Below the pieces are notes generated by a model that saw nothing but the letters and a program-made list of their open reading frames with translations, searched no databases and had not been told where the DNA came from. Both the position numbers and the translations under genes were made by a program. Of a stretch of 64,000 nucleotides of DNA, positions 18,887-47,035 are shown in pieces; the stretch's first letter is position 1, and each line of letters starts with the position of its first letter. This DNA comes from a virus (Duplodnaviria > Caudoviricetes). Location: the IMG/VR virus record IMGVR_UViG_3300028738_000008; one strand, given 5' to 3'.

Positions 18887-18911
18887 TTTTTCAAAATATT
18901 TTGTATTTATA

Positions 18912-18942
18912 TTTGCAAGTTACAAATTAATGATTACCTTTG
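18912..18942 (+). promoter_or_regulatory. Bacteroidota-type promoter of tRNA operon 1
   Basis: TTTG-N19-TACCTTTG; TATTTATA at 18904-18911. Confidence 0.8.
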
Positions 18943-18971
18943 TACCGAAATAAAATTTTAAGAAATATACA

Positions 18972-19043
18972 ATGAGAACAATTTTTAACATAGTACCGCA
19001 GCATCAACCACAACCCTTGAAGTATCTTCAATCGAATGGCTGA
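18972..19043 (+). CDS. Leader peptide 1 (MRTIFNIVPQHQPQPLKYLQSNG)
   Basis: PQHQPQP run upstream of a terminator and Pro/His/Gln tRNAs. Confidence 0.85.
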   Translation: MRTIFNIVPQHQPQPLKYLQSNG

Positions 19044-19071
19044 ACTATGTAAAAAATAAACATACATAATG

Positions 19072-19108
19072 ATCCCCTTTAATTGAAAGATTAAAGGGGA
19101 TTTTTTTT
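19072..19108 (+). terminator. Attenuator terminator 1
   Basis: atcccctttaat-tgaaag-attaaaggggat plus T-tract. Confidence 0.9.
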
Positions 19109-19110
19109 AT

Positions 19111-19195
19111 CTAGGCGTAGCCCTGTAGTTGGTAGCAGTCCTGATTTGGGATCAGGCGTGGTAACACCTCGTGAGTTCGACCCTCACCGCTTAGA
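19111..19195 (+). tRNA. trnP: tRNA-Pro(TGG), long variable arm
   Basis: cctga-tttggga-tcagg; C1-G72, A73; 14-nt variable region. Confidence 0.85.
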
Positions 19196-19205
19196 CAAAA
19201 TTTAT

Positions 19206-19282
19206 CTGGGAGTTATGCAGAGGCAATACAACGGTATTTTGGAAATATCGGCTCGTGAGTTCGATTCTCACCTCTCAGACCA
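19206..19282 (+). tRNA. trnP: tRNA-Pro(TGG)
   Basis: ggtat-tttggaa-atatc; CCA encoded. Confidence 0.85.
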
Positions 19283-19310
19283 CTGATTATCAGTTCTTTG
19301 AATAATTTAT

Positions 19311-19383
19311 AGAGTAGTATATCAATTGGCAGATTACCGCATTCGGGATGCGGAGGCTCTGGATTCGAGTTCCAGTTACTCTA
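19311..19383 (+). tRNA. trnP: tRNA-Pro(CGG)
   Basis: ccgca-ttcggga-tgcgg. Confidence 0.85.
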
Positions 19384-19393
19384 CTGATTAGAT

Positions 19394-19467
19394 GGTGTCT
19401 ATAGTGCAATTGGTAGCATGACAGATTGTGGTTCTGTTGATGACAGGTTCGAACCCTGCTAGACACA
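19394..19467 (+). tRNA. trnH: tRNA-His(GTG)
   Basis: acaga-ttgtggt-tctgt; G-1 present. Confidence 0.9.
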
Positions 19468-19495
19468 CTAAATGCGAATTGCATTTTATTAAAAT

Positions 19496-19570
19496 GGTGA
19501 TTGTAGCTTAAACGGATAAAGCGCATGCCTGTGAAGCATGTATATGCGAGATCGTACCTCGTCTTTCACC
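19496..19570 (+). tRNA. trnH: tRNA-His(GTG), atypical T-loop and two acceptor mismatches
   Basis: catgc-ctgtgaa-gcatg; T-loop atcgtac. Confidence 0.65.
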
Positions 19571-19590
19571 CTAATTTTAAATTAAAGATC

Positions 19591-20355
19591 ATGTATTACG
19601 TTGTACAGAAGAATGTTTTTAGGGAAGAAAATTACGATAATTTGATTATCGCTTTGAATCGGTTGGAGTTGCCATATGAGATCGTTGATGTATTACCTTT
19701 TGTAGACACCTTCGAATTCAAGACAACCAGAAAGGATGTTTTTCCTTTCGGAGCTGTTAAAATGTCAAGAATTGCCAAAGAATTGGACTGGAATCCAGGC
19801 TCTCAATTATGTGACAATCATGACTATAACGTATATAGTAAGTATTATAAAGAAAACTTGCTGAACTACGATTCAAGGATTATCAGGTTTGGCGATGATT
19901 TCTTTCAAACAGAAAGGTTCTTTGCACGTCCGACATTGGATACTAAAGTGTTTACTGGTCATGTGTTTGACATGGGCGAATGGATTAAGTTCAGAGACGA
20001 ATCCATTGTCAATGGACATAGCACTTTACTGAACACAGATACTGAAATTCAGATTTCTTCTGTAAAAAATATACAGAAAGAAATAAGGTTTTGGATTGTG
20101 AAAGGCGAAATCGCCACAGCAAGTCAGTATTCTCTGGGTGGAAGATTCTGTGTGAATGAAAACGTCGATCAGTCGGCATATGACTTCGTAAACAGAATGA
20201 TTAAGATATTCGAATTGAATGATACCTTTATTATAGATGCATGCCTTGTTAAAGGCGAATACAAAATAGTTGAATGCGGTTGCACAAACAGTGCTGGCTT
20301 CTATCGAGCAGATATGCAAAAGCTGCTTATGAAATTGGAAGACGCTTTCAATTAA
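19591..20355 (+). CDS. ATP-grasp domain protein (DUF4343/R2K-like)
   Basis: FARP..DTKVFTG, EIRFWIVKG.I...SQY, FIIDA..., KIVECGCTNSAGFY; start revised to the ATG at 19591. Confidence 0.8.
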   Translation: MYYVVQKNVFREENYDNLIIALNRLELPYEIVDVLPFVDTFEFKTTRKDVFPFGAVKMSRIAKELDWNPGSQLCDNHDYNVYSKYYKENLLNYDSRIIRFGDDFFQTERFFARPTLDTKVFTGHVFDMGEWIKFRDESIVNGHSTLLNTDTEIQISSVKNIQKEIRFWIVKGEIATASQYSLGGRFCVNENVDQSAYDFVNRMIKIFELNDTFIIDACLVKGEYKIVECGCTNSAGFYRADMQKLLMKLEDAFN

Positions 20356-20362
20356 TATAAAT

Positions 20363-20438
20363 TGCCTTATGGTGTAATTGGCAACACACCTGATTCTGAT
20401 TCAGTTGAGTGAAGGTTCGAGTCCTTCTAAGGCATCCA
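20363..20438 (+). tRNA. trnQ: tRNA-Gln(CTG)
   Basis: Loop ttctgat; CCA encoded. Confidence 0.9.
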
Positions 20439-20445
20439 ACTATAT

Positions 20446-20517
20446 TGCCCTGTTATGTAATGGCTAGCATACGACACTTTGACTGTCGGAGTTACGGTTC
20501 GAATCCGTACAGGGCAA
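20446..20517 (+). tRNA. trnQ: tRNA-Gln(TTG)
   Basis: cgaca-ctttgac-tgtcg. Confidence 0.9.
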
Positions 20518-20603
20518 CAAAATTTAACGATATATTAGCGTTATTTAGAATCATTTTTTTTACATAATGTGCATATTTTTACTATTTATAGGTAAAATAT
20601 ACC

Positions 20604-21617: not shown

Positions 21618-21666
21618 AGTCAAGTGCTTATTATGAAATTAAAAGTATTTATTTTAAAATAATATC

Positions 21667-22437: not shown

Positions 22438-22485
22438 TAAAATAGTGAATTATTTTAAACTTTTTTGATTTTTTTACTATTTATA

Positions 22486-22516
22486 TTTGCAGGTATCAAA
22501 AATTGTATTACCTTTG
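22486..22516 (+). promoter_or_regulatory. Promoter of tRNA operon 2
   Basis: TTTG-N19-TACCTTTG; near-copy of the operon 1 promoter. Confidence 0.8.
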
Positions 22517-22546
22517 TACCGAAATTAATATTTAAGAATAGAAACA

Positions 22547-22639
22547 ATGAGAAATTTACTTAACATAGAATTATTGGCAGTGGATCAGGTCAACCTCCTA
22601 TTATGGGCGGATGAAGATAGATTATGCCATGCTGGTTAA
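22547..22639 (+). CDS. Leader peptide 2 (MRNLLNIELLAVDQVNLLLWADEDRLCHAG)
   Basis: 19 of 30 residues are L/D/E/V/A/W. Confidence 0.85.
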   Translation: MRNLLNIELLAVDQVNLLLWADEDRLCHAG

Positions 22640-22664
22640 GTAGAGTTTAAGAATATTTTAAACT

Positions 22665-22695
22665 AAACCCCCAGCATACGTGTTGGGGGTTTTTT
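22665..22695 (+). terminator. Attenuator terminator 2
   Basis: aaacccccagca-tacg-tgttgggggttt plus T-tract. Confidence 0.9.
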
Positions 22696-22739
22696 GTTTA
22701 TGTACGTTATTTGACATGTTGGGTTATAAAATTAAAATT

Positions 22740-22811
22740 GGTCTATTGGGGTATGGGTTATCCTTTGTGGTTGTCAGCCATGAGAAGCGAGTTCAAGTCT
22801 CGCATAGACCG
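22740..22811 (+). tRNA. trnD: tRNA-Asp(GTC)
   Basis: Loop ttgtcag; G73. Confidence 0.8.
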
Positions 22812-22870
22812 CACTAAGCATTATGAGAGTACTTGCCACTAGGGTAAGCCAACCTAAATTGCTTTTTCAT

Positions 22871-22944
22871 ACCTTCGTAGGGGAGTGGTCGTCCCTGTCG
22901 CACTGTCTATGCGAAGATCGCCAGTTCAAATCTGGTCGGGGGTG
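22871..22944 (+). tRNA. trnD: tRNA-Asp(GTC)
   Basis: tcgca-ctgtcta-tgcga. Confidence 0.85.
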
Positions 22945-22973
22945 CTGGTTTCATAATAAATGAAACATTTAAT

Positions 22974-23046
22974 GCTCGGTTCATCTAACTGGTTAGGATA
23001 GGTGACCTTCAATCATCCAATACGGATTCAAGTTCCGTACCGAGTA
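22974..23046 (+). tRNA. trnE: tRNA-Glu(TTC)
   Basis: ggtga-ccttcaa-tcatc. Confidence 0.8.
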
Positions 23047-23056
23047 CTTTTTTCAT

Positions 23057-23131
23057 GCTCCTATCGTCTAGTTGGTTCAAGGCGTCTGTTTTACAAGCAG
23101 AATATCGGTGGTTCGAATCCATCTGGGAGCA
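23057..23131 (+). tRNA. trnV: tRNA-Val(TAC)
   Basis: tctgt-tttacaa-gcaga. Confidence 0.85.
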
Positions 23132-23140
23132 CAAATTTAT

Positions 23141-23213
23141 GGCTTAGTAGACCAACGGCAGAGTCATCAGACTTAAACCCTGTACAGTGTGGGTTCGAAT
23201 CCCACCTAAGCTA
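23141..23213 (+). tRNA. trnL: tRNA-Leu(TAA), short variable loop
   Basis: Loop cttaaac; 5-nt variable loop; weak anticodon stem. Confidence 0.75.
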
Positions 23214-23220
23214 CAAATAT

Positions 23221-23294
23221 GGCTCAGTATCCCAATTGGCAGAGGAAGTTGACTCAAAAACAACTAGTTGTCGGTTCGAATCCGACTTGAGCTA
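23221..23294 (+). tRNA. trnL: tRNA-Leu(CAA), short variable loop
   Basis: Loop ctcaaaa. Confidence 0.8.
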
Positions 23295-23305
23295 CAATAT
23301 AATAT

Positions 23306-23378
23306 GGATCGGTAGACCAACGGCAGAGTCACTTGTTTTAGAAGCAAGCCAGTGAGGGTTCGAATCCCTCTCGATCTA
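23306..23378 (+). tRNA. trnL: tRNA-Leu(TAG), short variable loop
   Basis: cttgt-tttagaa-gcaag. Confidence 0.8.
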
Positions 23379-23388
23379 CAATATTTAT

Positions 23389-23475
23389 GGGGAATTGATG
23401 GAATGGTAGACATCCTAGTTTTAGAAACTAGTGCGAAATAATAGTAGCGTGTGAGTTCGAGTCTCACATTCCTCA
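23389..23475 (+). tRNA. trnL: tRNA-Leu(TAG), long variable arm
   Basis: ctagt-tttagaa-actag. Confidence 0.9.
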
Positions 23476-23594
23476 CGCAATATTCAATGGGAACGCATGT
23501 GTTAACATCGTGGCGTCCGTCACGTAGATGGGAAACAGAACAGGGAGCATGCCTAGAATCTCGTTTAGGGTTGGAGATTTACTTTAATAATTAT

Positions 23595-23668
23595 GGGGCA
23601 GTAGCTCAATTGGCTAGAGCACTACACTTGCAATGTAGAGGTTGTGGAATCGTCCTCCATCTGCTCCA
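23595..23668 (+). tRNA. trnA: tRNA-Ala(TGC), atypical T-loop
   Basis: ctaca-cttgcaa-tgtag; G3:U70; T-loop atcgtcc. Confidence 0.85.
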
Positions 23669-23696
23669 CTGATAATCAGGAGATTATCTATTTTAC

Positions 23697-23786
23697 ACGT
23701 CTATGTCCGAGTGGCTTAAGGAACTGGTCTCCAAAACCAGCGTGGGTGACACCATATCCAAGGTTCGAATCCTTGTTGGCGTGCCA
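23697..23786 (+). tRNA. trnW: tRNA-Trp(CCA) with class II (Ser-like) body
   Basis: ctggt-ctccaaa-accag; 18-nt variable region; G73; CCA encoded. Confidence 0.8.
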
Positions 23787-23807
23787 GAGAATAAATGTTG
23801 CGAATCT

Positions 23808-23836
23808 TGTAACATTTATTCTTTTTTTTCGTATAA
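23808..23836 (+). promoter_or_regulatory. TGTAAC-N16-CGTATAA putative promoter (copy 1 of 4)
   Basis: Same boxes and spacing at 29658, 38449, 56088. Confidence 0.65.
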
Positions 23837-23853
23837 TTTGTAAAAATAACAAT

Positions 23854-26299: not shown

Positions 26300-26305
26300 A
26301 TTGTT

Positions 26306-28510: not shown

Positions 28511-28542
28511 CTTGCAGATGTAATTTATTTGAATTACTTTTG
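28511..28542 (+). promoter_or_regulatory. Promoter of tRNA operon 3
   Basis: CTTG-N20-TACTTTTG; TATTTATA at 28503-28510. Confidence 0.75.
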
Positions 28543-28571: not shown

Positions 28572-28649
28572 ATGATGAATGCAACACTTAAATACGGAAA
28601 GACTACTAAATCTTATAAAAAATATAAGATGAAGAAGGACTGTGTGTAA
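28572..28649 (+). CDS. Leader peptide 3 (MMNATLKYGKTTKSYKKYKMKKDCV)
   Basis: 8 Lys and 3 Tyr in 25 residues. Confidence 0.85.
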   Translation: MMNATLKYGKTTKSYKKYKMKKDCV

Positions 28650-28671: not shown

Positions 28672-28706
28672 AAAAACCCAGTCTTAATTTAAGTCTGGGT
28701 TTTTTT
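28672..28706 (+). terminator. Attenuator terminator 3
   Basis: aaaaacccag-t-ctta-att-taag-t-ctgggttttt plus T-tract. Confidence 0.85.
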
Positions 28707-28720: not shown

Positions 28721-28792
28721 GCTCCTATAGCTTAATGGTAAAGCCTTCGACCTTTAATCGAATGACCCCTGAATCAGTATCAGGTGGGAGCA
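28721..28792 (+). tRNA. trnK: tRNA-Lys(TTT), atypical T-loop
   Basis: ttcga-cctttaa-tcgaa; T-loop atcagta. Confidence 0.7.
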
Positions 28793-28808
28793 CAGAGTAT
28801 AGTAAGTC

Positions 28809-28879
28809 GCTTCTATAGCTCAATGGTAGAGCTTGTAACTTTTAATTATAAGACCTCGGTTCGATTCCGAGTAGGAGCA
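28809..28879 (+). tRNA. trnK: tRNA-Lys(TTT)
   Basis: tgtaa-cttttaa-ttata. Confidence 0.9.
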
Positions 28880-28889
28880 CAAAATTATT

Positions 28890-28962
28890 GCCTTCGTAGC
28901 TTAATCGGGAAAGCTGTACACTCTTAATGTAAGGAGCGTGAGTTCGATCCTCACCGAGGGCA
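28890..28962 (+). tRNA. trnK: tRNA-Lys(CTT)
   Basis: Loop ctcttaa. Confidence 0.9.
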
Positions 28963-28969
28963 CAAATAT

Positions 28970-29051
28970 GGGATGGATGGTAAGCAGGCGAAATCAGCGG
29001 ATTGTAAACCCGTCGCTACCAGCTATTTAGGTTCGAATCCTAACCGTCCCA
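28970..29051 (+). tRNA. trnY: tRNA-Tyr(GTA)
   Basis: Loop ttgtaaa; long variable arm. Confidence 0.85.
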
Positions 29052-29110
29052 CGTGAGAGACCGTTATAATTTCAAAGTCCACTTGGTATCGGAAGCGTAG
29101 AAATTAATTT

Positions 29111-29194
29111 GGGGATGTATGCAAATGGTTGAAGCAAGCGGTCTGTAAAACCGTGACGTAAGAGACGATGCTGGTTCGAATCCAGCCAGCCCCA
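29111..29194 (+). tRNA. trnY: tRNA-Tyr(GTA)
   Basis: gcggt-ctgtaaa-accgt; long variable arm. Confidence 0.9.
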
Positions 29195-29256
29195 CTTGGT
29201 AGACTGTTATAATTTCATAGAACCCATTAAGTGTGGTATGCGTGGAAATTAAAAAT

Positions 29257-29337
29257 GGCGGCAGACGGGTAATGGAAATCCTAGGGGCATGCAATCCTGA
29301 GTCACAGACTATGTTGGTTCGAATCCAACCGTCGCCA
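29257..29337 (+). tRNA. tRNA-like gene, anticodon undetermined (8-nt loop gcatgcaa)
   Basis: Good acceptor and T-arm (gttgg-ttcgaat-ccaac), variable hairpin, no U33. Confidence 0.55.
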
Positions 29338-29361
29338 CAATGAATTAAAAATTAATTAGAT

Positions 29362-38550: not shown

Positions 38551-39222
38551 ATGATGAAAGATCAAATTATCGAATTACGAAAATTGGGAAATTCGTACAA
38601 CGAAATAGTAAGTAAACTTGGTTGTACAAAGTCAAATGTCTCATATCATTGTGGCAAATTAGGAATTAATTTACATAATGATAATCCGAAAAAAATAAGT
38701 GAACAAATCGTAGAGTCAATAAGAAACGATAAAATTTCGTTGTCGTCTAAAGAGATTGCTTTAAAATATAATGTTAGCGTAAGTACAGTGAATAAATTTA
38801 CAAAGATGAAGTCAAGGTCTTTAGATATAAAACCTGAAAGTAGCGTATGTTTAAATTGTGGTAAAGAAACACCGTATAGAAAAGAGAAACGATTTTGTAG
38901 CAATCAATGCGGTGCTCAATATATACACAAATTGGCTTATAAAGATTTTTTAGAAAATAACGAAAAATATTGTGTTGGAAATTACACAGCTAAAAATTTT
39001 AAGGACTTTATTGTAGCTGAGCAAAATGATAAATGCTTGATATGTGGAATGTCAGCAATTTGGGAAAACAAAATATTAGTTTTCGTTTTAGATCACATTG
39101 ACGGTAATGCTTCAAATAACAAAAGAGAAAATTTAAGATTAATTTGTCCTAATTGCGATTCGCAAACAAGCACATTTAAATCGAAAACGAAGGTTTCAAT
39201 GAGAAGAAATTATAATAAATAA
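38551..39222 (+). mobile_element. Free-standing HNH homing endonuclease with N-terminal HTH
   Basis: CLICG...LDHIDGNASNNKRENLRLICPNC; located within the tRNA array. Confidence 0.88.
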
Positions 39223-39227
39223 TATAT

Positions 39228-39310
39228 GGAAGGTAGCATGCAGTGGTGCATAAGTGGCTTTGAACACCATGCCGATGTAAAAGTCGAGAGTTCGATTCTT
39301 TTACCTTCCG
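39228..39310 (+). tRNA. trnS: tRNA-Ser(TGA)
   Basis: Loop tttgaac; long variable arm; G73. Confidence 0.85.
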
Positions 39311-39636
39311 CTTAGAAGTAAGATTAGTCTGAGACAAAGTACACGTCATGGCAACCACGCCAGCTTCTACACGCATAGCTGATTGATTAACAGAGTCATT
39401 CAGTCTGGTACTTAGAAGTAGTGTTAGCAATTGTTCTGTTTATTTGCTAATGATATTTATTAATTGCCGTTTCCGAATTGCTTAAGATGCTGCCATTAAG
39501 ATTCTGTTTGGGACAATTAGAAAGGATGTGTTGAACTACCCGATTATAAAAGGTCTCCTGAGATTTTATGAATCTTTGTAATAAGGTTCGTGGTCGTGAG
39601 TAAGAGGCTCACATCGGAAATAAAATATTTAAAATT

Positions 39637-39710
39637 GGGGAGGTAGCTCAGTTGGTAGTAGCGGTGGATTGAAGATCCACAGGTCGTCGGTTCAAGTCCG
39701 ACTCTCCCCA
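39637..39710 (+). tRNA. trnF: tRNA-Phe(GAA)
   Basis: gtgga-ttgaaga-tccac. Confidence 0.92.
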
Positions 39711-39791
39711 CGAAAAACAATGGTGCTTAGTATTGTTACTTCAATGGATGAAACAAAACACAATGCTGCAAAATTCCTTGTTTTTATTATC

Positions 39792-39865
39792 GCAGTGATG
39801 GTGTTTAATGGTTAGCATATAACCTTGCCAAGGTTGAGGTGGAAGTTCGAATCTTCTTCATTGCT
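39792..39865 (+). tRNA. trnG: tRNA-Gly(GCC)
   Basis: taacc-ttgccaa-ggttg; U73. Confidence 0.9.
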
Positions 39866-40089
39866 CTTTTTTTATATTTATTATTTCGGTGATGAAATCT
39901 AAATATTTTTTTGATGTTCGCTCTTTGACATATTTTTGAGCAGATGTATCGATAACATAATAATCAATAGAATTATTGGCGCATGCTGTTATTTTTAAAT
40001 TATCATTGATCTGGGTTTGACGTAATTTTCTCTCGCCAAAAACAGGTAAATTAAATTTAATCCCGATCACCTGCTCCACAAATTAAATT

Positions 40090-40175
40090 GCAGTAATCGC
40101 ATAGTTGGTCGATTGCGCCAGCCTTCCAAGCTGGAAAGAGAAATCACGGCGAGGGTTCGAATCCCTCTTACTGCT
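40090..40175 (+). tRNA. trnG: tRNA-Gly(TCC), extended variable region
   Basis: ccagc-cttccaa-gctgg; 16-nt variable region. Confidence 0.85.
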
Positions 40176-40191
40176 CAATAAATTGTTAATA

Positions 40192-40464
40192 ATGAAACTG
40201 AAAAACATATTGAAAGCCTTATGGGGTCAGTTACCAGCACAAAGAGCATTTAGGAATTTTTTTATCACTGGAAATGCTTTAGGCATGTTTAACATAAGAA
40301 GTCATCAGTGTGAAAATGGTACTCCAAAGGTTATGTACAATACCAGAGCCACAGCACAAAAAGCTGCTGATAGCATGGGTAAAAAAATGAATAAGCATTT
40401 CTCGGTTTATAAATGTATCTATTGTGATGGGTATCACTTAGGTAAGAATAGAGATAATAAATAG
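40192..40464 (+). CDS. Small basic protein with YxCxxCxGxH zinc-binding motif
   Basis: Start revised (40105 overlaps the tRNA). Confidence 0.7.
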   Translation: MKLKNILKALWGQLPAQRAFRNFFITGNALGMFNIRSHQCENGTPKVMYNTRATAQKAADSMGKKMNKHFSVYKCIYCDGYHLGKNRDNK

Positions 40465-40535
40465 TGGTATAGCTCAGTTGGTAGAGCATGGGTATCATAA
40501 GCCCTGTGTCATAGGTTCGATTCCTATTGCCGCTA
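40463..40535 (+). tRNA. tRNA(CAT), Met or Ile2
   Basis: Loop atcataa. Confidence 0.8.
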
Positions 40536-40931
40536 CAAACTAATAAATATATAATGGTAGAAAGTAAGTTTAATTCACACGGAAAATTGAAAATGGATAA
40601 TGATACAAAAATCAAGGCTGGCGATACTGTTGAATACAGCTATGCTGATAATAACCCAAACGATAGAACAAGAAAAATGATCGTAACGCTTAGAGGCACT
40701 TGGGATGGTGATAAGGTTTCATTCAACGATAAGAAAAATACCGTAGTTAAAACTACTCATTGGCTAACATTAATAGAAGAATAATATGCAAGAAAAAGAA
40801 GATGCTATTGAGGAAAGGGATGATAAGCTTTCATACGAGAATTATAATCATGTTGATGGCAAATTTCATAAAGTAAGACGTAAGAATACGCATCTTACGC
40901 CAAAGAAGAAAAAACGAAAGTAAAAATATAT

Positions 40932-41021
40932 TGCGAGTTAGAGAAGTCAGGCCTATCTCACCAGTCTCATAAGCTGGAGTACCGTTTAAAAGTATCGTTG
41001 GTTCGAATCCAGCACTCGCTT
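40932..41021 (+). tRNA. trnM: tRNA-Met(CAT), initiator-like 1:72 mismatch, long variable arm
   Basis: ccagt-ctcataa-gctgg; T1:T72. Confidence 0.75.
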
Positions 41022-41035
41022 CATTAAAAACACAC

Positions 41036-41120
41036 TGCGGAATGGTGTAATTGGCAACACACGAGGCTCATAACCTTGAGACATTAAATGCTTGTATTGG
41101 TTCGAATCCAATTTCCGCTT
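41036..41120 (+). tRNA. trnM: tRNA-Met(CAT), initiator-like 1:72 mismatch, long variable arm
   Basis: cgagg-ctcataa-ccttg; T1:T72. Confidence 0.75.
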
Positions 41121-41134
41121 CTATAATTATAATT

Positions 41135-41208
41135 GGTCGTGTGGCGCAATTGGTTAGCGCAATTGTCTTATACACAAAAGGTTGTGGGTTCAAGTCCCAC
41201 CATGACCA
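41135..41208 (+). tRNA. trnI: tRNA-Ile(TAT)
   Basis: ttgt-cttatac-acaa. Confidence 0.85.
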
Positions 41209-41220
41209 CAACAAATACAT

Positions 41221-41301
41221 GCTTAGTTAGCCAAGTGGCAAGGCAGCAGACTGTTAATCTGCCGAAGAAATTCATCGTAGGTTCGATCCCTACACTAAGC
41301 G
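41221..41301 (+). tRNA. trnN: tRNA-Asn(GTT), long variable arm
   Basis: gcaga-ctgttaa-tctgc; gaa-gaaa-ttc arm; G73. Confidence 0.88.
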
Positions 41302-41594
41302 CAAATACTTTATATTTTTTGTTGCATATCTAATTTATTATCATTAAATTTGCAGCCTAAAACATTTAATATGATAGTAAAATATGTACATCATGACACT
41401 GAGGTAAGTGTGCAAGAAGAAATGCTTGGAAAACATCGTGAGCATTGCTTATGTTATCAGGGTTGTAAGTTCTTCAAACCTGAAACCAGAAAAGGAAATT
41501 GTGGCATTGCAAATGCCATTTATAAGAATTGCGTTCTTTACGGTGTTGTAACACCAGTTTGGGAATGTCCTAAATACGAGAAGGAAACTGTGTA

Positions 41595-41843
41595 ATGGAT
41601 GAATTAATACCAGCACCTGAACAGAATATGTTCAACATTGAAGTTTATTTGGACGACGGAAGGGTATTCGAATACAAAGTAGCGTCAGCCGAAAAAGTTC
41701 GAGAACATGCTCATGCCATTATCATGACAGGCTACAGGCATAATGATGGATTTTTATTTGAACATTATCCACCGCACAGAATCTTGAAGGTCAAGAGCAA
41801 TAACATAAGCACTCAGTATAAAGACGTAACAAAAGGAACGTAA
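41595..41843 (+). CDS. Small hypothetical protein
   Basis: 82 aa ORF coupled to its neighbours. Confidence 0.7.
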   Translation: MDELIPAPEQNMFNIEVYLDDGRVFEYKVASAEKVREHAHAIIMTGYRHNDGFLFEHYPPHRILKVKSNNISTQYKDVTKGT

Positions 41844-42148
41844 TGGAATTACAAAAATTGATTTTAGCCGAGGACGTTTACGACGCCTTGGAAACAGGTA
41901 AGAATTGTACGATCAGAAAAGGTCGCAGAGACATTCAATTAGACAAGCTTTTATTTGAATCGCTTGACGAAAAAAGAACAACAGTCGTAAATGTCGTAAT
42001 GACAATTCATTGTAAGCTACAGCATATTCCAGACGAGTTTGTATGGAACGACGGATTCACAGGACATGAAAACATGCTTACAGAAATGAAAAGGTTTTAT
42101 CCTGACATTCAAATGGATACCGAATGTACTGTAATTATATTTGAATAA
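41843..42148 (+). CDS. ASCH/PUA-like domain protein
   Basis: GKNCTIRKG; ends DGF....L..MKRFYP. Confidence 0.7.
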   Translation: MELQKLILAEDVYDALETGKNCTIRKGRRDIQLDKLLFESLDEKRTTVVNVVMTIHCKLQHIPDEFVWNDGFTGHENMLTEMKRFYPDIQMDTECTVIIFE

Positions 42149-42336
42149 TGAATTTCGAGACATTATTGGCAATAATTATAGCAATTCCATTTTCAATGAT
42201 TTGTCTACGTTGCACATTGAAAAATTGTGAGAATCCTTCATATGAATCATGGAGAATTGAGAACGAATAAAAATATAAATGCTGGAACAACTCTGTACGT
42301 GAGCCAGCTACTATTGCAATAGTAACGTACACTCAC

Positions 42337-42408
42337 GCCGATATCATATAATTGGTATTATGCTGGCTCTGTAACCCAGACATCGGGAATCGTCCTCTCG
42401 TATCGGCT
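42337..42408 (+). tRNA. trnT: tRNA-Thr(TGT), atypical T-loop and C33
   Basis: gccgata/tatcggc acceptor; loop tctgtaa; T-loop atcgtcc. Confidence 0.65.
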
Positions 42409-42414
42409 CAATAT

Positions 42415-42488
42415 GCATCCTTAGCTATAATTGGTAGAGCACCTGTTTAGTAAGCAGGGGGTTGTCGGTTCGAGTCCGTCAGGATGCT
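42415..42488 (+). tRNA. trnT: tRNA-Thr(AGT)
   Basis: cctgt-ttagtaa-gcagg. Confidence 0.85.
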
Positions 42489-42741
42489 CAAACATTTAAA
42501 TTAAAAACAATGGTAAATACATTAAAGGGTAAATTGATTAAAACTGTTATAAAGAGTGCTTGCAGAGCAAAATTTACTAAAGAGAAGGTGCAAGAGTATC
42601 TAAAGGGATATTTAGCATTTGAGACAACTGTAACAAATTATTCGCTTGATGTAGATTCAGCATATTTTGATATTGTCTATGTGGACAATCATCAAAATCA
42701 TTTAATTAGTGTTAATATAAAAATCGTAAAATAAAAGTAAT

Positions 42742-43134
42742 ATGACAATTCAAGATCAGATCAACTTGGACTTGCACCAAGCAATGTTAAACAAAGACAA
42801 GGAACTTTTAACATTTTTAAGGGTTGTAGCCAGTGATTTTTACCTAAAAGGAAAGGTCATTGACGATGAAATGGCGAAGAAAGTTTTACGCACATTAAAG
42901 GAAGAAGCAACCATAATGAACAACCAATACGAAATTGACGTTATTGCTAAGTATTTGCCAGCATTATTAAGCGAAGCAGAGATCAAAGCACTCGTTATTG
43001 AGGCTATTAAAGCCAATGGCTTCGCTGGAATGAAAGACATGGGTAAAGTTATGGCTGAATTAAAAAAGTTGCCTACAGCCTCTCAAATTGACAATACTTA
43101 TGCCAGTAAATTAACAAAGGAATTGCTAGCATAG
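42742..43134 (+). CDS. GatB/YqeY domain protein
   Basis: AMLNKDKE.L..LR; YLPALLSEAEI; MKDMGKVM; TAG stop followed directly by TAA. Confidence 0.9.
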   Translation: MTIQDQINLDLHQAMLNKDKELLTFLRVVASDFYLKGKVIDDEMAKKVLRTLKEEATIMNNQYEIDVIAKYLPALLSEAEIKALVIEAIKANGFAGMKDMGKVMAELKKLPTASQIDNTYASKLTKELLA

Positions 43135-43142
43135 TAAAATAT

Positions 43143-43218
43143 GGAGGCGTATCACAACAATCTTCTAAATTGTTTTAGTGTAATTGGACTGATGTGGGTT
43201 CGACTCCCATCGCCTCTT
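43143..43218 (+). tRNA. trnR: tRNA-Arg(TCT)-like, D-armless with D-like hairpin in the variable region
   Basis: aacaat-cttctaa-attgtt; agt-gtaattgg-act; gtggg-ttcgact-cccat. Confidence 0.7.
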
Positions 43219-43516
43219 CAAGAATAATAACTATTATGAATATAATTAAAGTAGAAAACGTAAAAGGCATTGAAAATCGTGCAAAGGGTATGACGGTATT
43301 GCACGATTATAAAATGGATGGTAGACATGTTCAGTCTGTTATAGTTGTTTTAAGCTATGATGATCTTAAAAGTATTAGCAATATAATCGAAAAATTGAGG
43401 GGATATAATGTTAGTTGTTTGGTCATGCCAGAAGCTTTACATTTTACTCCAGAAGAAAGAATATTGCTTGAACCTTTATTCAATAAAAGTTTTACTGTAA
43501 GTTATTATTAAACAAT

Positions 43517-43590
43517 GGCTATGTAGCTCAACTGGATGGAGCACTTCGCTACGAACGAAGAGGTTGGGGGTTCGAATCCCTTCATGGTCA
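43517..43590 (+). tRNA. trnR: tRNA-Arg(ACG)
   Basis: cttcg-ctacgaa-cgaag. Confidence 0.92.
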
Positions 43591-43603
43591 CAAATGCATA
43601 TAT

Positions 43604-44485
43604 ATGAAAAAGAACATAGTATTTTATAACGCCTATCATAAAGGTGACTTACATTACTCAAGACAATTTATGAAAGATATTCAAAAGAATCTCTCGACTA
43701 AATATGAGGGTTTCTTTTATTCTGATAAATATCCTGATGATAATATTTATTTTGACTTAGTTGATTTTAAACGACTTCCGTTTAAAAATATGCTTAATGA
43801 AAATTCTCAAGTTACTTATGACGAAAAAAATGTTTACATTAATACTTGGATAGGTCAAGGTGGGTACAAATATGTTGTTGAGTCTAAATGCTCTTTAAAG
43901 TCTTATCATAATATGTATAAGGACATTTATGTAACATTAGGCATACCTTTAAAGAGAATTGATGCATATATTCCAACGATTGATTATACAAAGCTTGACC
44001 AACAGCATACCGTAAATATTTTGAATTTTAACAGTCAGCAAAAACTCACCAACGTAAAGAAGAAGATACTTATATGTAATGGCGATGTATTATCATTTCA
44101 GTCTGAGAATTTTAAATTTGAATACATTGTAAACATACTTGCATTCATGAATCTCAATTGTACTTTTATATGTACCAGTAAATCTTTTCTACCCAAAACC
44201 GATAATGTTGTTTTCTGCGAGGATATCATAAAAAAAGACGGCTGTGATCTAAATGAAATTTCTTTTCTATCAACATTTTGCGATATAATCGTCGGCAGAG
44301 CTTCTGGGCCTTATGCATTCACGCATGTAAAGGAAAACATTGGGAATAAAGATATCGATTATATTTCATTATGTAAAAATATAGAAGAAGGTATTTGGTA
44401 TCAGGGCAAAGCATCTAATAGCTGGTCTGACAAATATACCATAAATAATATTGTTGACATGATTAATTTGAAAATAAATGACTAA
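43604..44485 (+). CDS. Glycosyltransferase-like protein
   Basis: HKGDLHYSR; CDLNEISFLSTFCDIIVGRASGP. Confidence 0.5.
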   Translation: MKKNIVFYNAYHKGDLHYSRQFMKDIQKNLSTKYEGFFYSDKYPDDNIYFDLVDFKRLPFKNMLNENSQVTYDEKNVYINTWIGQGGYKYVVESKCSLKSYHNMYKDIYVTLGIPLKRIDAYIPTIDYTKLDQQHTVNILNFNSQQKLTNVKKKILICNGDVLSFQSENFKFEYIVNILAFMNLNCTFICTSKSFLPKTDNVVFCEDIIKKDGCDLNEISFLSTFCDIIVGRASGPYAFTHVKENIGNKDIDYISLCKNIEEGIWYQGKASNSWSDKYTINNIVDMINLKIND

Positions 44486-45149
44486 AAAAGTATTAATTTT
44501 TACAAGTGCTTGGGGCAGAAGACCTCTAATGACACGACAATGCATGCTGAGTGTTATGGCTCAGAGTTATAAAGATCTTGTCCATGCGGTTAACATTACT
44601 TTAGACGGCGACGCAACCACAAAAGATTATTCTCCGATGTATAACGATCTTGTTAAATTGGATAATAGATTTATCGTTAATACCAATCTGAATGGTCATA
44701 CACATCATAATAATATGCTTGCGATAAAGTCCGTTCCAAATTTCATGGAGTATGATTATTTTTTGAAGATGGATAATGACGATATATACAAAACTCATTA
44801 CGTTGAGAATATTGTAAATTTCTTTGAAGCAAATCCTGATGTAGATATTACATCGACAAAAATAACCGATCACTTAAATGGTTATGACCTTTATAAAGGC
44901 TCATGGGATAATTTTGGCGCAAATCCAGATGGAACAGATTATCATATGCCTATGACATTTGCATTTACACGTAAAGCATTGGAGTCTATTATCGGACTAA
45001 CAAATATTTATGGCTTTGATGATATGATGTGGCGTGACGCATGGGCTAAAGATGGCTTGAAGCATAAGGCTGTTCATAATGAAAACGAAGTTATTTTCAA
45101 TGTACATGGCGGAAATGTCTCAACAGGCAGTTGGTTAAAAAAGAAATGA
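44478..45149 (+). CDS. GT2-family glycosyltransferase
   Basis: SVMAQSY; YFLKMDNDDIY. Confidence 0.8.
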   Translation: MTKKVLIFTSAWGRRPLMTRQCMLSVMAQSYKDLVHAVNITLDGDATTKDYSPMYNDLVKLDNRFIVNTNLNGHTHHNNMLAIKSVPNFMEYDYFLKMDNDDIYKTHYVENIVNFFEANPDVDITSTKITDHLNGYDLYKGSWDNFGANPDGTDYHMPMTFAFTRKALESIIGLTNIYGFDDMMWRDAWAKDGLKHKAVHNENEVIFNVHGGNVSTGSWLKKK

Positions 45150-45152
45150 ATC

Positions 45153-45767
45153 ATGATAAATGGAGATCGTAGTAAAATAAATTTATTCGTATGCGTTTAT
45201 AGTACTGAGAATAAACGGAGACAGAATGAAATGGATAAATGTTTACGAATTAATAAAAGGAATCAATTTCTCAATGTTGTGCCAATTTATAATCAGGATA
45301 GACTAACATATAATGATTTCTTTAAAATCATAAATGAAGCGTCTGGAAATGATGACATTAACATAATAACAAATTCGGATATATATTTTGACTCTACTAT
45401 TGAATTAGCTCAACATATGTTATATAAGGAATTATATGCATTAACTCGCTGGGATTTAAATGGTAATGACTTAACATTTTATAATCTTAGTTATAGTCAG
45501 GATAGCTGGATATTTAGAGGTAAAATTGAAGATATTAATGCACCTTATGAATTAGGAAAAATGGGATGCGATAATAAAATAGCTTTTGAATTTTTTAATA
45601 AAGGTTATAAAGTGCTAAACCCATCTAAAAGCATTATTACAACTCATTTACATGAATCAAATTTTAGAACATATGATTATTTTGATCAGTATGATGGGTG
45701 GACTCTGTGGATTGAGCCTCATTTTATTTTTGAAGAGCCTGTATTTAATAAATATATGAAATCCTAA
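45153..45767 (+). CDS. GT-A-like hypothetical protein
   Basis: IITNSDIYFD; GKMGCDNKIA. Confidence 0.5.
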   Translation: MINGDRSKINLFVCVYSTENKRRQNEMDKCLRINKRNQFLNVVPIYNQDRLTYNDFFKIINEASGNDDINIITNSDIYFDSTIELAQHMLYKELYALTRWDLNGNDLTFYNLSYSQDSWIFRGKIEDINAPYELGKMGCDNKIAFEFFNKGYKVLNPSKSIITTHLHESNFRTYDYFDQYDGWTLWIEPHFIFEEPVFNKYMKS

Positions 45768-46754
45768 ATGAGAAAAGCACTAATAATCGGTATAACAGGA
45801 CAGGACGGTTCATATCTCGCAGAATATTTATTGGAAATGGGATATGATGTTCACGGTATTGTAAGAAGAAATTCATTACCCAATTCGCAATCGTATCGTC
45901 TTGAGTCGATAGAAAAAGAAATTCATACCTATTATGGTGACCTATTAGATCAAACATCCTTAGATAGTACTCTTGCTGAGGTTAAACCTGATGAAATTTA
46001 TAATCTGGGTGCTCAATCTCATGTTAGAATTAGTTATGATATTCCACAATACACATCACAGGTAAATGCCATAGGCGTTTTAAATCTACTTGAGTCGTAT
46101 AAGAAAATATGTCCAGAAGCTAAATTATACCAAGCCAGCACTTCCGAAATGTTTGGATTGAATATTGACGATGATAATTTCCAGAGAGAAACAACGGTTT
46201 TGAATCCTGTTTCCCCTTATGGTATATCGAAAGTATTTGCTTATGGCATGGTAAGGCATTATAGACGAGCATATGATTTACATGCATGTAATGGCATTTT
46301 GTTTAATCATGAATCTCCAAGACGTGGTGACAACTTTGTTACAAGTAAAGTCGTTAAAAGTGCATGTATGATTAAATTAGGACGACAAGAAAAACTTGAA
46401 TTAGGCAATATGGACTCATACAGGGATTGGGGGCATGCTAAGGATTACGTGAAAACAATGCATTTAATTATCAATCATGAAACAGCTGATGATTTTGTTG
46501 TTAGCACTATGGAAACTCGCTCAGTAAGAGATATGTGCGATATAGTTTTTAAATATTTGGATTTGAATTATATGGATTATGTTGTTCAAAATCCTAAATT
46601 TATGAGAGCAGAGGAATTACCATATTTAAGAGGTGATTCAACAAAAATGAGAAATACGTTCAATTGGAAGCCTACTTACACATTCGAAGAAATGATGTAC
46701 GAAATGACTGCTCATTGGATGGATGTATTACAGGGAATTAAATCAAAAAGATAA
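45768..46754 (+). CDS. gmd: GDP-mannose 4,6-dehydratase
   Basis: ALIIGITGQDGSYLAE; YQASTSE; SPYGISK; GILFNHESPRRG. Confidence 0.95.
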   Translation: MRKALIIGITGQDGSYLAEYLLEMGYDVHGIVRRNSLPNSQSYRLESIEKEIHTYYGDLLDQTSLDSTLAEVKPDEIYNLGAQSHVRISYDIPQYTSQVNAIGVLNLLESYKKICPEAKLYQASTSEMFGLNIDDDNFQRETTVLNPVSPYGISKVFAYGMVRHYRRAYDLHACNGILFNHESPRRGDNFVTSKVVKSACMIKLGRQEKLELGNMDSYRDWGHAKDYVKTMHLIINHETADDFVVSTMETRSVRDMCDIVFKYLDLNYMDYVVQNPKFMRAEELPYLRGDSTKMRNTFNWKPTYTFEEMMYEMTAHWMDVLQGIKSKR

Positions 46755-46944
46755 GAGTTCGATATAATGCAGCGAGAATAAATACATCGAGGTTAAAGGG
46801 TATGAAACAGAGTTAGATCGAATTAAATGGAGTCAATTTACTGAACCATTGGAAGTTTGGAAGAGAAAAGAATTGTTAAAATTAGGACTAAAATTATAAT
46901 AATTGACTTGTATTTGTTAATAATTATAAGTATTTTTGTAAAAT

Positions 46945-47035
46945 GGATAGATGCCAGAGTCTGGTTTATCGGGACAACCTGCTAAGTTGTTGTACGGCGA
47001 AAGTCGTGCCGAGGGTTCGAATCCCTCTCTATCCG
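46945..47035 (+). tRNA. trnS: tRNA-Ser(GCT)
   Basis: acaac-ctgctaa-gttgt; long variable arm; own host-type promoter near 46906-46938. Confidence 0.92.

What the first reader, a model, noticed from the sequence alone, without database searches (positions are those of the whole stretch)
18904..47035. Four leader-peptide attenuators that partition all 20 amino acids across the phage tRNA operons
Seen in sequence: four units share one layout of promoter, short ORF, intrinsic terminator and then a tRNA array. Leader 1 (PQHQPQP) precedes Pro x3, His x2, Gln x2. Leader 2 (19/30 L,D,E,V,A,W) precedes Asp x2, Glu, Val, Leu x4, Ala, Trp. Leader 3 (8 K, 3 Y) precedes Lys x3, Tyr x2. Leader 4 (39/48 S,I,G,T,N,R,M,F,C) precedes Cys, Ile x2, Ser, Phe, Gly x2, CAT x3, Asn, Thr x2, Arg x2 (a further Ser has its own promoter). 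The sets are disjoint and sum to 3+6+2+9=20. In each unit the last leader codons are complementary to the terminator. Established: this is trp/his/ilv-type attenuator architecture, normally used for amino-acid biosynthesis operons. Inference: the phage senses a shortage of charged tRNA (host depletion or anticodon-nuclease defence) by ribosome stalling, then transcribes only the matching tRNA set. I do not know of this being described for tRNA arrays.
Basis: partly seen in the sequence, partly recalled or inferred. Interest (0 to 1): 0.97.

Follow-up and report, generated by a model that had tools for sequence, protein, structure and literature searches.

The report
Leader-peptide attenuators gating phage tRNA arrays
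A giant peat-soil phage puts each of its four blocks of tRNA genes behind a tiny translated "test gene" written in exactly the codons those tRNAs read, followed by a switchable transcription stop, so it probably makes a tRNA block only when ribosomes read those codons slowly, a control known for amino-acid genes that I could not find published for tRNA genes.

Summary
Four units on the + strand each consist of a Bacteroidota-type promoter, a short ORF, a hairpin with a T-run, and a tRNA array. The arrays together cover all 20 amino acids.

- **Composition match:** 76 of 122 leader residues belong to the amino-acid set of the unit's own array. None of 1,000,000 random partitions reached this.
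- **Anticodon coverage:** all 30 distinct anticodons have a cognate codon in their own leader (chance about 6e-8).
- **Co-variation in relatives:** huge phages with different tRNA groupings have leaders that follow their own grouping. Examples are a 425-kb IMG/VR contig and the GenBank records LR756500.1 and LR756501.1. None of 200,000 shuffled leader/array pairings matched the observed total.
- **Switch structure:** the last leader codons pair with the terminator's 5' arm. The cognate pair is strongest in 11 of 12 units. In this window the pairing is clear for units 3 and 4 but weak for units 1 and 2. Ribosome-masked folds give the expected switch.

This is classical trp/his/ilv-style attenuation applied to tRNA genes. 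No RNA data exist for this phage, and the trigger is inferred. Seven literature searches found no description of it. Earlier unchecked AI notes from this scan report the same layout in other phage genomes.

The parts
18912..18942 (+). Unit 1 promoter, Bacteroidota type (TTTG, 19 nt, TACCTTTG)
18972..19043 (+). Leader ORF 1, 23 codons. Sensor run is codons 9-15, CCG CAG CAT CAA CCA CAA CCC (PQHQPQP); stop TGA
   Evidence: 8/22 residues are P/H/Q against 1.6 expected. All 5 anticodon species of the array have a cognate codon here
19026..19039 (+). Unit 1 candidate antiterminator strand (CTTCAATCGAATGG). It can pair with the upstream TTGAAG or, imperfectly, with the terminator 5' arm and loop
   Evidence: The duplex is weak, -5 to -7 kcal/mol, and not beyond shuffles
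19071..19109 (+). Unit 1 intrinsic terminator (12-14 bp stem, 8 T). It ends 2 nt before the first tRNA
19111..20518 (+). tRNA array 1: Pro-TGG x2, Pro-CGG, His-GTG x2, an ATP-grasp (R2K) gene at 19591-20352, Gln-CTG, Gln-TTG
22486..22516 (+). Unit 2 promoter (TTTG, 19 nt, TACCTTTG)
22547..22639 (+). Leader ORF 2, 30 codons, 19 of them L/D/E/V/A/W; stop TAA
   Evidence: p 2e-4. 8/8 anticodon species are sampled
22629..22635 (+). Unit 2 antiterminator strand ATGCTGG (codons 28-30), complementary to CCAGCAT of the terminator 5' arm
   Evidence: In orthologues this changes to AGTCGGG/CCCGACT. It is not beyond shuffles on its own
22665..22695 (+). Unit 2 intrinsic terminator
22740..23786 (+). tRNA array 2: Asp x2, Glu-TTC (22974), Val, Leu-TAA, Leu-CAA, Leu-TAG x2, Ala, Trp
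23789..23828 (+). Terminator that closes array 2 directly after tRNA-Trp
28512..28542 (+). Unit 3 promoter (TTG ... TACTTTTG)
28572..28649 (+). Leader ORF 3, 25 codons, with 8 Lys (4 AAA, 4 AAG) and 3 Tyr (TAC, TAT x2); stop TAA
   Evidence: (p 1.4e-5)
28636..28647 (+). Unit 3 antiterminator strand (AGGACTGTGTGT region), which pairs with the terminator 5' arm
   Evidence: -10.1 kcal/mol, shuffle p 0.035
28672..28706 (+). Unit 3 intrinsic terminator
28721..29195 (+). tRNA array 3: Lys-TTT x2, Lys-CTT, Tyr-GTA x2
37849..37879 (+). Unit 4 promoter (TTTG, 19 nt, TACTTTTG)
37984..38130 (+). Leader ORF 4, 48 codons, 39 of them S/I/G/T/N/R/M/F/C; stop TGA. An in-frame upstream ATG at 37936 would add 16 codons
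   Evidence: p 1.4e-5. 14/14 anticodon species are sampled
38108..38118 (+). Unit 4 antiterminator strand TAGATTGGGTT, 11 pairs with AACCCGATCTA of the terminator 5' arm
   Evidence: -15.5 kcal/mol, shuffle p 0.0035
38153..38186 (+). Unit 4 intrinsic terminator
38238..43591 (+). tRNA array 4, interspersed with ORFs: Cys, Ile-GAT-like (about 38343-38420, unconfirmed), an HNH-like ORF, Ser-TGA (weak), Phe, Gly x2, CAT x3, Ile-TAT, Asn, Thr-TGT (weak), Thr-AGT, Arg-TCT-like (odd), Arg-ACG
   Evidence: No strong + strand terminator lies inside
46945..47036 (+). tRNA-Ser-GCT, probably with its own promoter (TATTTTTG at 46929-46936). Its codon AGT is nevertheless present in leader 4

Best explanation
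These are four ribosome-mediated (leader-peptide) transcription attenuators, each gating one tRNA operon of a huge phage with a Bacteroidota-type host.

Proposed mechanism (the sequence parts are shown; the dynamics are inferred):
1. Host RNA polymerase starts at a TTTG/TAnnTTTG promoter, and a ribosome translates the short leader.
2. If the ribosome runs quickly to the stop codon, it covers the last leader codons. These are a near-copy of the terminator's 3' arm. The terminator hairpin and T-run then form 22-28 nt downstream, and transcription stops before the tRNAs.
3. If the ribosome stalls on a sensor codon because the matching charged tRNA is scarce, the leader tail stays free and pairs with the terminator's 5' arm as it emerges. 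The polymerase then reads into the array.

Each leader contains codons for every anticodon in its own array, so shortage of any one of them opens the whole block (OR logic). The products are the sensed tRNAs themselves, so the circuit is a negative-feedback supply-on-demand loop. Four such loops cover all 20 amino acids.
For: - Layout at four sites.
- Composition match: 76/122, with 0 of 1e6 random partitions reaching it. The true leader/array pairing is the best of 24 permutations, 76 against 59 for the next.
- Anticodon coverage 30/30, chance about 6e-8.
- Co-variation in a distant relative: a 425-kb contig groups its tRNAs as {E,D,V,F,I,N,W}, {M,K,R}, {Y,T,P,A,S,C,H,G,V,R} and {Q,L}, and its four leaders follow that grouping. 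The score is 65/113 against a null of 33.3 +/- 5.8, with 0 of 3e5 reaching it.
- Further lineages have other groupings with matching leaders. These include GenBank LR756500.1 (H,E,V,W,L) and LR756501.1 (R,A,T,V,G,P; a 10-bp leader/terminator duplex of -21.5 kcal/mol).
- For the first 14 units, 0 of 2e5 shuffled pairings reach the cognate sum.
- Among orthologues the order of sensor residues is not conserved but the composition is: PQHQPQP, PQPQQHPQ and PQQHPQ.
- The leader tail against the terminator 5' arm is strongest for the cognate pair in 11 of 12 units. The paired sequence differs between orthologues: ATGCTGG/CCAGCAT against AGTCGGG/CCCGACT.
- Ribosome-masked folding of the nascent transcript sequesters the 5' arm when the A site is on sensor codons (0.66-0.98). 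Sequestration is lower at the tail or stop codon, 0.11-0.66.
- In units 1 and 3 the terminator abuts the first tRNA with a gap of 10-14 nt, so there is no room for a separate promoter.
Against: - No transcript or ribosome data exist; no RNA run was listed for this phage.
- At equilibrium the full-length RNA always folds into the terminator, so the switch must be kinetic, as in trp.
- Against shuffled tails, the antiterminator duplex is not individually significant for unit 1 (p 0.15) or unit 2 (p 0.20). It is marginal for unit 3 (0.035) and clear only for unit 4 (0.0035).
- In two leaders of the 425-kb relative the pairing segment lies 5-9 codons before the stop, so a terminating ribosome would not mask it.
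- The large sets of 9-10 amino acids cover about half of ordinary protein composition, so they discriminate less well.
- Tight transcription-translation coupling in Bacteroidota is assumed, not known to me.
- Several array-4 tRNAs are weak or unusual calls.
Confidence: 0.85

Rival explanations
1. The switch is the same, but the natural signal is amino-acid starvation of the host (uncharged tRNA), as in biosynthetic operons, rather than shortage of the tRNA molecules themselves.
For: A stalled ribosome cannot tell a missing tRNA from an uncharged one. The architecture is the same as in amino-acid operons.
Against: Making more tRNA does not relieve amino-acid starvation, so this would be a futile response. 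The leaders sample every anticodon species, synonymous codons included (30/30). That fits sensing of isoacceptors, not of amino acids.
Confidence: 0.1
2. The short ORFs and terminators are real but not regulatory. The hairpins are leaky constitutive terminators or insulators, and the ORFs encode small peptides or merely stabilise the transcript.
For: No expression data exist. The antiterminator duplex is weak in units 1 and 2.
Against: This does not explain why leader composition tracks the array in at least 8 lineages with at least 6 different groupings. It does not explain why residue order drifts while composition is kept. It does not explain why the tail/5'-arm complementarity is cognate-specific.
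Confidence: 0.04
3. The element is an RNA-only sensor. The leader RNA binds tRNAs directly through codon-like triplets, in the manner of a T-box, without being translated.
For: The codon triplets are by definition complementary to the anticodons downstream.
Against: No T-box or other Rfam family matches the leaders. The triplets are in one reading frame between a conserved ATG and a stop, with an A-rich upstream region. Up to 14 anticodon species would have to be read by one short RNA. The position of the stop codon relative to the pairing segment is conserved.
Confidence: 0.02
4. The resemblance between four short ORFs and the neighbouring tRNA sets is due to chance.
For: Short ORFs are common in AT-rich intergenic DNA.
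Against: 0 of 1e6 random partitions, 0 of 3e5 and 0 of 2e5 reach the observed values. Anticodon coverage has a chance probability of about 6e-8.
Confidence: 0.005

Closest known systems
Multivalent leader-peptide attenuators of enterobacterial amino-acid operons (ilvGMEDA: Ile/Leu/Val; ilvBN: Val/Leu; thr: Thr/Ile), together with trpL, hisL, leuL and pheL (textbook knowledge)
   Same: A promoter-proximal short ORF is enriched in regulatory codons. An intrinsic terminator follows, with a mutually exclusive antiterminator that a ribosome at the ORF end prevents. Several amino acids are sensed by one leader. Unit 1 even shows a four-segment (1:2, 2:3, 3:4) design in the fold model.
   Different: The controlled genes are tRNAs, not enzymes, so the product feeds back on the sensor directly. 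Up to 9-10 amino acids and 14 anticodon species are sensed by one leader. Four leaders partition the whole code. The system is viral. There is no sequence or structure homology to Rfam's leader families.
pheST (phenylalanyl-tRNA synthetase) operon attenuator with the Phe-rich leader pheM in E. coli (from memory, not checked here)
   Same: Leader-peptide attenuation controls a component of the decoding apparatus rather than a biosynthetic enzyme.
   Different: It senses one amino acid and controls a synthetase protein. It is not a tRNA gene, not a phage element and not a multiplexed set.
T-box riboswitches of Firmicutes
   Same: They control transcription of translation-related genes by antitermination in response to the charging state of a specific tRNA.
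   Different: In a T-box the RNA binds uncharged tRNA directly, with no ORF and one tRNA per element. No T-box match is found here, and the sensor is a translated ORF.
Phage tRNA sets proposed as replacements for host tRNAs depleted or cleaved during infection (PMC10264068; PMC10802454)
   Same: They give the physiological rationale: phage tRNAs rescue translation when host tRNAs are removed.
   Different: Those papers concern what the tRNAs do, not how their expression is controlled. PMC10264068 contains no mention of attenuators, leaders, promoters or terminators.

Membership tests
Ribosome-mediated (leader-peptide) transcription attenuators, as a functional class | A short ORF with start and stop codons lies between the promoter and the first structural gene | tested here: met
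   Four ORFs of 23-48 codons begin 23-100 nt after the TAnnTTTG boxes. The sequence upstream of each ATG is A-rich.
Ribosome-mediated (leader-peptide) transcription attenuators, as a functional class | Regulatory codons correspond to the product of the controlled genes | tested here: met
   76/122 own-set residues, with 0 of 1e6 random partitions reaching it. 30/30 anticodon species are sampled.
Ribosome-mediated (leader-peptide) transcription attenuators, as a functional class | An intrinsic terminator lies between the leader ORF and the structural genes | tested here: met
   Hairpins of -9.8 to -15.6 kcal/mol followed by 6-8 T, 22-28 nt after each stop codon.
Ribosome-mediated (leader-peptide) transcription attenuators, as a functional class | An alternative antiterminator pairing is mutually exclusive with the terminator and is blocked by a ribosome at the end of the ORF | tested here: inconclusive
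   At the level of the whole set it is met: the cognate tail/5'-arm duplex is strongest in 11 of 12 units, and masked folds behave as expected. Within this window only unit 4 (p 0.0035) and unit 3 (p 0.035) exceed shuffles. Units 1 and 2 do not.
Ribosome-mediated (leader-peptide) transcription attenuators, as a functional class | The element is conserved in relatives, and the regulatory codons co-vary with the controlled genes | tested here: met
   16 units in at least 8 lineages with at least 6 different tRNA groupings.
Ribosome-mediated (leader-peptide) transcription attenuators, as a functional class | Read-through responds to the supply of the cognate charged tRNA in vivo or in vitro | not testable with these tools
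   No RNA run was listed for this DNA.
Rfam amino-acid operon leader families (His, Trp, Thr, Leu and Phe leaders) | A match to the family covariance model | tested here: not met
   cmscan at gathering threshold and at E <= 1 gives only tRNA hits and chance hits in 18000-48000. The resemblance is functional, not homologous.
T-box riboswitch | A specifier loop and the conserved T-box antiterminator motif, detectable with the Rfam model | tested here: not met
   No T-box match at E <= 1.

The most novel reading that the evidence does not exclude
Huge phages run their own decoding-capacity homeostat. It is a small set of codon-sampling leader attenuators that together monitor every anticodon the phage can supply, and that switch on only the tRNA block whose codons are being read slowly. 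On this reading the system is also a built-in detector and antidote for host anticodon nucleases and for tRNA depletion during host shut-off. The partition of the code among sensors is evolutionarily fluid, with tRNAs moving between arrays and the leaders re-written to follow them.
Probability: 0.4. Interest if true: 0.95.

Novelty: new variant of a known kind. Interest (0 to 1): 0.88.

Why it matters
Phage tRNA genes have been debated for fifty years (codon compensation, host shut-off, evasion of anticodon nucleases), yet almost nothing is known about how their expression is controlled. A codon-matched attenuator in front of each array would have three consequences:
- It would imply that the phage measures decoding speed codon by codon and supplies tRNAs on demand. 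This makes the competing hypotheses directly testable: which depletion opens which unit.
- It would extend leader-peptide attenuation from amino-acid metabolism to the translation machinery itself, and to viruses.
- It would provide compact natural sensors for the availability of up to 14 tRNA species, useful as reporters of tRNA pools.

The leaders can also be used to annotate the identity of unusual phage tRNAs, such as the odd Ile-GAT-like and Arg-TCT-like genes here.

Tried and rejected
- **Close cultured relatives:** blastn of 18850-23800 against 50,697 GenBank phage records gave only tRNA-sized hits.
- **Whole genome:** none is held for the window.
- **RNA evidence:** the DNA occurs in many peat metagenome runs, but none is on record as RNA, and a second search restricted to RNA listed none.
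- **Brevundimonas jumbo phages:** they share the ATP-grasp gene at 35% identity but have no tRNA array next to it, so they are not a useful model.
- **TTTGACATGTTGG as a second promoter feeding the tRNAs:** rejected for lack of a -7/-10 box before the tRNA 5' end. The short core is not enriched in the window.
- **TAG recoding as a complication for the leader stops:** rejected. No leader ends in TAG, and reading TAG through barely lengthens frames.
- **E. coli tRNA-Phe genes (pheU/pheV):** I recalled that they might have an attenuator-like leader. The literature search gave nothing to support this, and I do not claim it.
- **Formal pair counting on the MAFFT alignment of unit-2 orthologues:** abandoned because the terminator columns were not aligned structurally. 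The cognate/non-cognate duplex matrix was used instead.
- **Literature:** seven searches found no description of leader-peptide control of tRNA genes.

Full report
**1. What is there**

The window comes from a huge phage found in peat metagenomes. Its closest IMG/VR relative is a 148-kb fragment estimated at 45% complete. The nearest GenBank relatives of one embedded gene are the 462-kb and 735-kb uncultured phages LR756500.1 and LR756501.1.

On the + strand between 18.9 and 47.0 kb, ARAGORN finds 33 tRNA genes. Infernal adds Glu-TTC at 22974, a third Lys at 28721, Thr-TGT at 42337 and an odd Arg-TCT-like gene at 43143. Ser-TGA at 39228 appears only below ARAGORN's default threshold. I can read a CUGAUAA anticodon loop and a good T-arm there, but the D region is abnormal, so I treat it as unconfirmed.

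With these calls the arrays are:
- Array 1: Pro x3, His x2, Gln x2.
- Array 2: Asp x2, Glu, Val, Leu x4, Ala, Trp.
- Array 3: Lys x3, Tyr x2.
- Array 4: Cys, (Ile), Ser, Phe, Gly x2, CAT x3, Ile, Asn, Thr x2, Arg x2, and a distant Ser-GCT.

**2. The four units**

Each array is preceded by the same layout.

*Promoters.* The strict Bacteroidota promoter pattern TTTG-N19-TAnnTTTG occurs only three times in the 64 kb, and all three are at units 1, 2 and 4 (0.68 expected by chance). The consensus itself is from my knowledge of Bacteroides and Flavobacterium promoters. Unit 3 has TTG...TACTTTTG.

*Leader ORFs*:
- 18972-19043, 23 codons, core PQHQPQP.
- 22547-22639, 30 codons.
- 28572-28649, 25 codons.
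- 37984-38130, 48 codons, with an in-frame ATG 16 codons further upstream.

*Terminators.* Each stop codon is followed after 22-28 nt by a G+C-rich hairpin and 6-8 T. These four are among only 11 strong + strand terminators in the whole window. In units 1 and 3 the first tRNA starts 10-14 nt after the hairpin. The tRNAs can therefore only be reached by reading through the terminator. Array 2 is closed by another terminator directly after tRNA-Trp.

**3. Is the match more than chance?**

- *Residue composition.* Leaving out the initiator Met, 8/22, 19/29, 11/24 and 38/47 leader residues belong to the amino-acid set of the unit's own array, 76 of 122 in all. Random partitions of the 20 amino acids into sets of 3, 6, 2 and 9 give 35.6 +/- 7.5, with a maximum of 72 in 1,000,000 trials. 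Among the 24 ways of pairing leaders with arrays, the true one is best (76 against 59 for the next). Against the window's own protein composition, each leader is enriched at p = 1e-5 to 2e-4.
- *Codon level.* Every distinct anticodon in every array (5/5, 8/8, 3/3 and 14/14) has at least one cognate codon in its own leader under strict wobble rules. With the phage's codon usage the joint chance is about 6e-8. The leaders look like codon samplers. Leader 1 reads CCG CAG CAT CAA CCA CAA CCC, which touches all five anticodon species of array 1.

**4. Relatives: the decisive comparison**

I used the ATP-grasp gene that sits inside array 1 as an anchor.

- *Same grouping.* Relatives with the same grouping as the window keep the leaders. 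The order of the sensor residues drifts (PQHQPQP, PQPQQHPQ, PQQHPQ) while the composition stays.
- *The 425-kb contig* (IMGVR_UViG_3300035208_004923, 97% complete) groups its tRNAs quite differently, and its four leaders follow that grouping:
  - A leader rich in F, N, I, V, E, D and W precedes Glu, Asp, Val, Phe, Ile, Asn and Trp.
  - A leader rich in K, R, M and ATA-Ile precedes CAT, Lys and Arg genes.
  - A leader rich in T, S, Y, H, A, G, R, C, P and V precedes exactly those tRNAs.
  - A leader with the core LLQQLQLLQL precedes Gln and Leu.
  
  The score is 65/113, against a null of 33.3 +/- 5.8, with 0 of 300,000 reaching it. These four sets also add up to 20 amino acids.
- *Other lineages*:
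  - {C,V,L}
  - {F,S,E,D}
  - {W,E,D,A,K,R,G,T,L,Y}
  - {H,E,V,W,L} in LR756500.1
  - {R,A,T,V,G,P} in LR756501.1
- *Shuffled pairings.* For the first 14 units, none of 200,000 shuffled leader/array pairings reaches the cognate total. One unit (L023) is a poor match, p = 0.4.

**5. The switch**

*Complementarity.* In most units the last leader codons resemble the terminator's 3' arm and hence complement its 5' arm:
- Unit 2: ATGCTGG/CCAGCAT.
- Unit 4: TAGATTGGGTT/AACCCGATCTA.
- Unit-2 orthologues: AGTCGGG/CCCGACT.
- LR756501.1: GGGTGTGGGT/ACCCACACCC.

These are shown.

*Cognate against non-cognate.* In a matrix of 12 leader tails against 12 terminator arms, the cognate (or orthologous) pair is strongest in 11 rows, sometimes narrowly.

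*Limits within this window.* Against shuffled tails the duplex is clear for unit 4 (p 0.0035), marginal for unit 3 (0.035) and not significant for units 2 (0.20) and 1 (0.15).

*Ribosome-masked folding.* I folded the nascent transcript, cut just before the 3' arm, with a ribosome footprint masked. The 5' arm is sequestered upstream when the A site is on sensor codons (0.66, 0.76, 0.83, 0.98). It is less sequestered when the ribosome is on the tail or the stop codon (0.11, about 0.3, 0.13-0.5, about 0.6).

*Four-segment design in unit 1.* Unit 1 and its orthologue in G004 show low sequestration without any ribosome (0.20, 0.12). This is the four-segment design of trp. In units 1-3 the conserved N-terminal codons (..AAC ATA G..) pair with the stop-codon region in the full-length fold. 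That may explain why those codons are conserved among otherwise unrelated leaders.

*Kinetic switch.* The full-length RNA always prefers the terminator at equilibrium, so the switch has to be kinetic, as in the classical cases.

**6. How it most likely works**

Shown by sequence: the promoter, the translated-looking leader, the terminator, the codon match, the co-variation and the complementarity.

Inferred: a fast ribosome reaches the stop codon and masks the tail, which leads to termination. A ribosome stalled on any sensor codon leaves the tail free, which leads to antitermination and transcription of the array.

The product is the sensed tRNA, so each unit is a negative-feedback loop on decoding capacity. 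The natural trigger is open. It could be demand from phage translation, loss of host tRNAs after host shut-off, or cleavage by anticodon nucleases. The last idea is supported in general by PMC10264068 and PMC10802454, which do not discuss regulation.

**7. Comparison with what is known**

Functionally this is a leader-peptide attenuator of the trp/his/ilv kind. It is closest to the multivalent ilv and thr leaders and, for its target, to the pheST leader (the pheST case is from memory). It is not homologous to Rfam's leader families or to T-boxes, since none matched.

Seven full-text searches found no paper that places such leaders in front of tRNA genes. The paper that released LR756500 and LR756501 does not contain the words attenuator, leader or terminator.

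This scan's own earlier notes report the same layout in many other phage genomes: 137 notes held the search words, in at least 100 genomes, and the eight shown all describe it. Those are unchecked AI notes. I did not use them as evidence, but the phenomenon has been seen before in this scan on other DNA.

**8. Verdict**

The mechanism and its trigger await experiment. I rate it a new variant of a known kind, of high interest.

Noticed in passing
window 29698-29770 (with terminator 29628-29652 and ORF 29362-29601 upstream): An amber-suppressor tRNA (anticodon CTA; ARAGORN labels it Pyl) lies behind its own terminator, downstream of array 3 and a 79-codon ORF. TAG ends only 1 of 43 long frames, but reading TAG through barely lengthens frames in this window. 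Any recoding would therefore concern other parts of the genome.
   Followed up: partly
window 38343-38420 and 43143-43218: Two tRNA-like genes (anticodon loops for GAT and TCT) have a very short D region and a D-arm-like hairpin (GTGTAATGG..CAC/ACT) in the position of the variable arm. ARAGORN's default misses both, and Infernal finds only the second, at 33 bits. Their codons (ATT; AGA/AGG) are present in leader 4.
   Followed up: partly
window 19111-19196, 23697-23786, 38238-38323, 40090-40176, 40932-41121, 41221-41302: Several tRNAs of identities that normally have short variable loops are 82-91 nt long: Pro 86, Trp 90, Cys 86, Gly 87, CAT 91 and 86, Asn 82. This suggests long variable arms or insertions.
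   Followed up: no
window 22707-22722, 38211-38226, 39921-39931; also L003, L004, L016, L036, L039, L040 and the 425-kb contig: A conserved motif, GTTCTTTGACATGTTGG, sits 10-20 nt before the first tRNA of many arrays, between the attenuator terminator and the tRNA. It is conserved as far as LR756501.1 and is absent where the tRNA abuts the terminator. No -7/-10 box follows it. It may be a processing or pause signal; it remains unexplained.
   Followed up: partly
window 19591-20352: An ATP-grasp gene of the R2K clade (Pfam R2K_3 and R2K_2) is embedded between the His and Gln tRNAs of array 1. It is conserved in or next to tRNA arrays in most of the huge-phage relatives examined, so it is probably co-regulated by leader 1. 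The longest ORF (from 19525) overlaps tRNA-His; the conserved start is MYYVVQ at 19591. The copy in the 425-kb contig is frameshifted.
   Followed up: partly
window 38551-39222; L012 about 1545-2180: An HNH-endonuclease-like ORF lies inside array 4. In the 95%-identical relative, another ORF is inserted between the unit-1 terminator and the first tRNA-Pro. This suggests that mobile endonuclease genes invade the arrays.
   Followed up: no
window 29254-29338: A tRNA-like sequence (good acceptor and T-arm, long extra arm, ambiguous anticodon loop) lies after the second tRNA-Tyr. It is called only at a low ARAGORN threshold and is not found by Infernal.
   Followed up: no
L010, reverse strand, about 5936-6065 (425-kb contig): The first tRNA after the K/R/M leader appears to carry an insertion of about 70 nt next to the anticodon loop, which may be an intron.
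   Followed up: no
L009/L010 (425-kb contig), upstream of its four leaders: The promoters there look sigma-70-like (TTGAAA, 18 nt, TATAAT, with TGTG upstream), not TAnnTTTG. The same attenuator design may therefore operate in a phage of a host outside the Bacteroidota.
   Followed up: no
window 15682-18597, 26841-28463, 31245-33794, 34433-36706: Neighbouring genes are a polysaccharide-deacetylase-like protein, a BspA-type leucine-rich-repeat protein, a ribonucleotide reductase large subunit and a von Willebrand A-domain protein.
   Followed up: no
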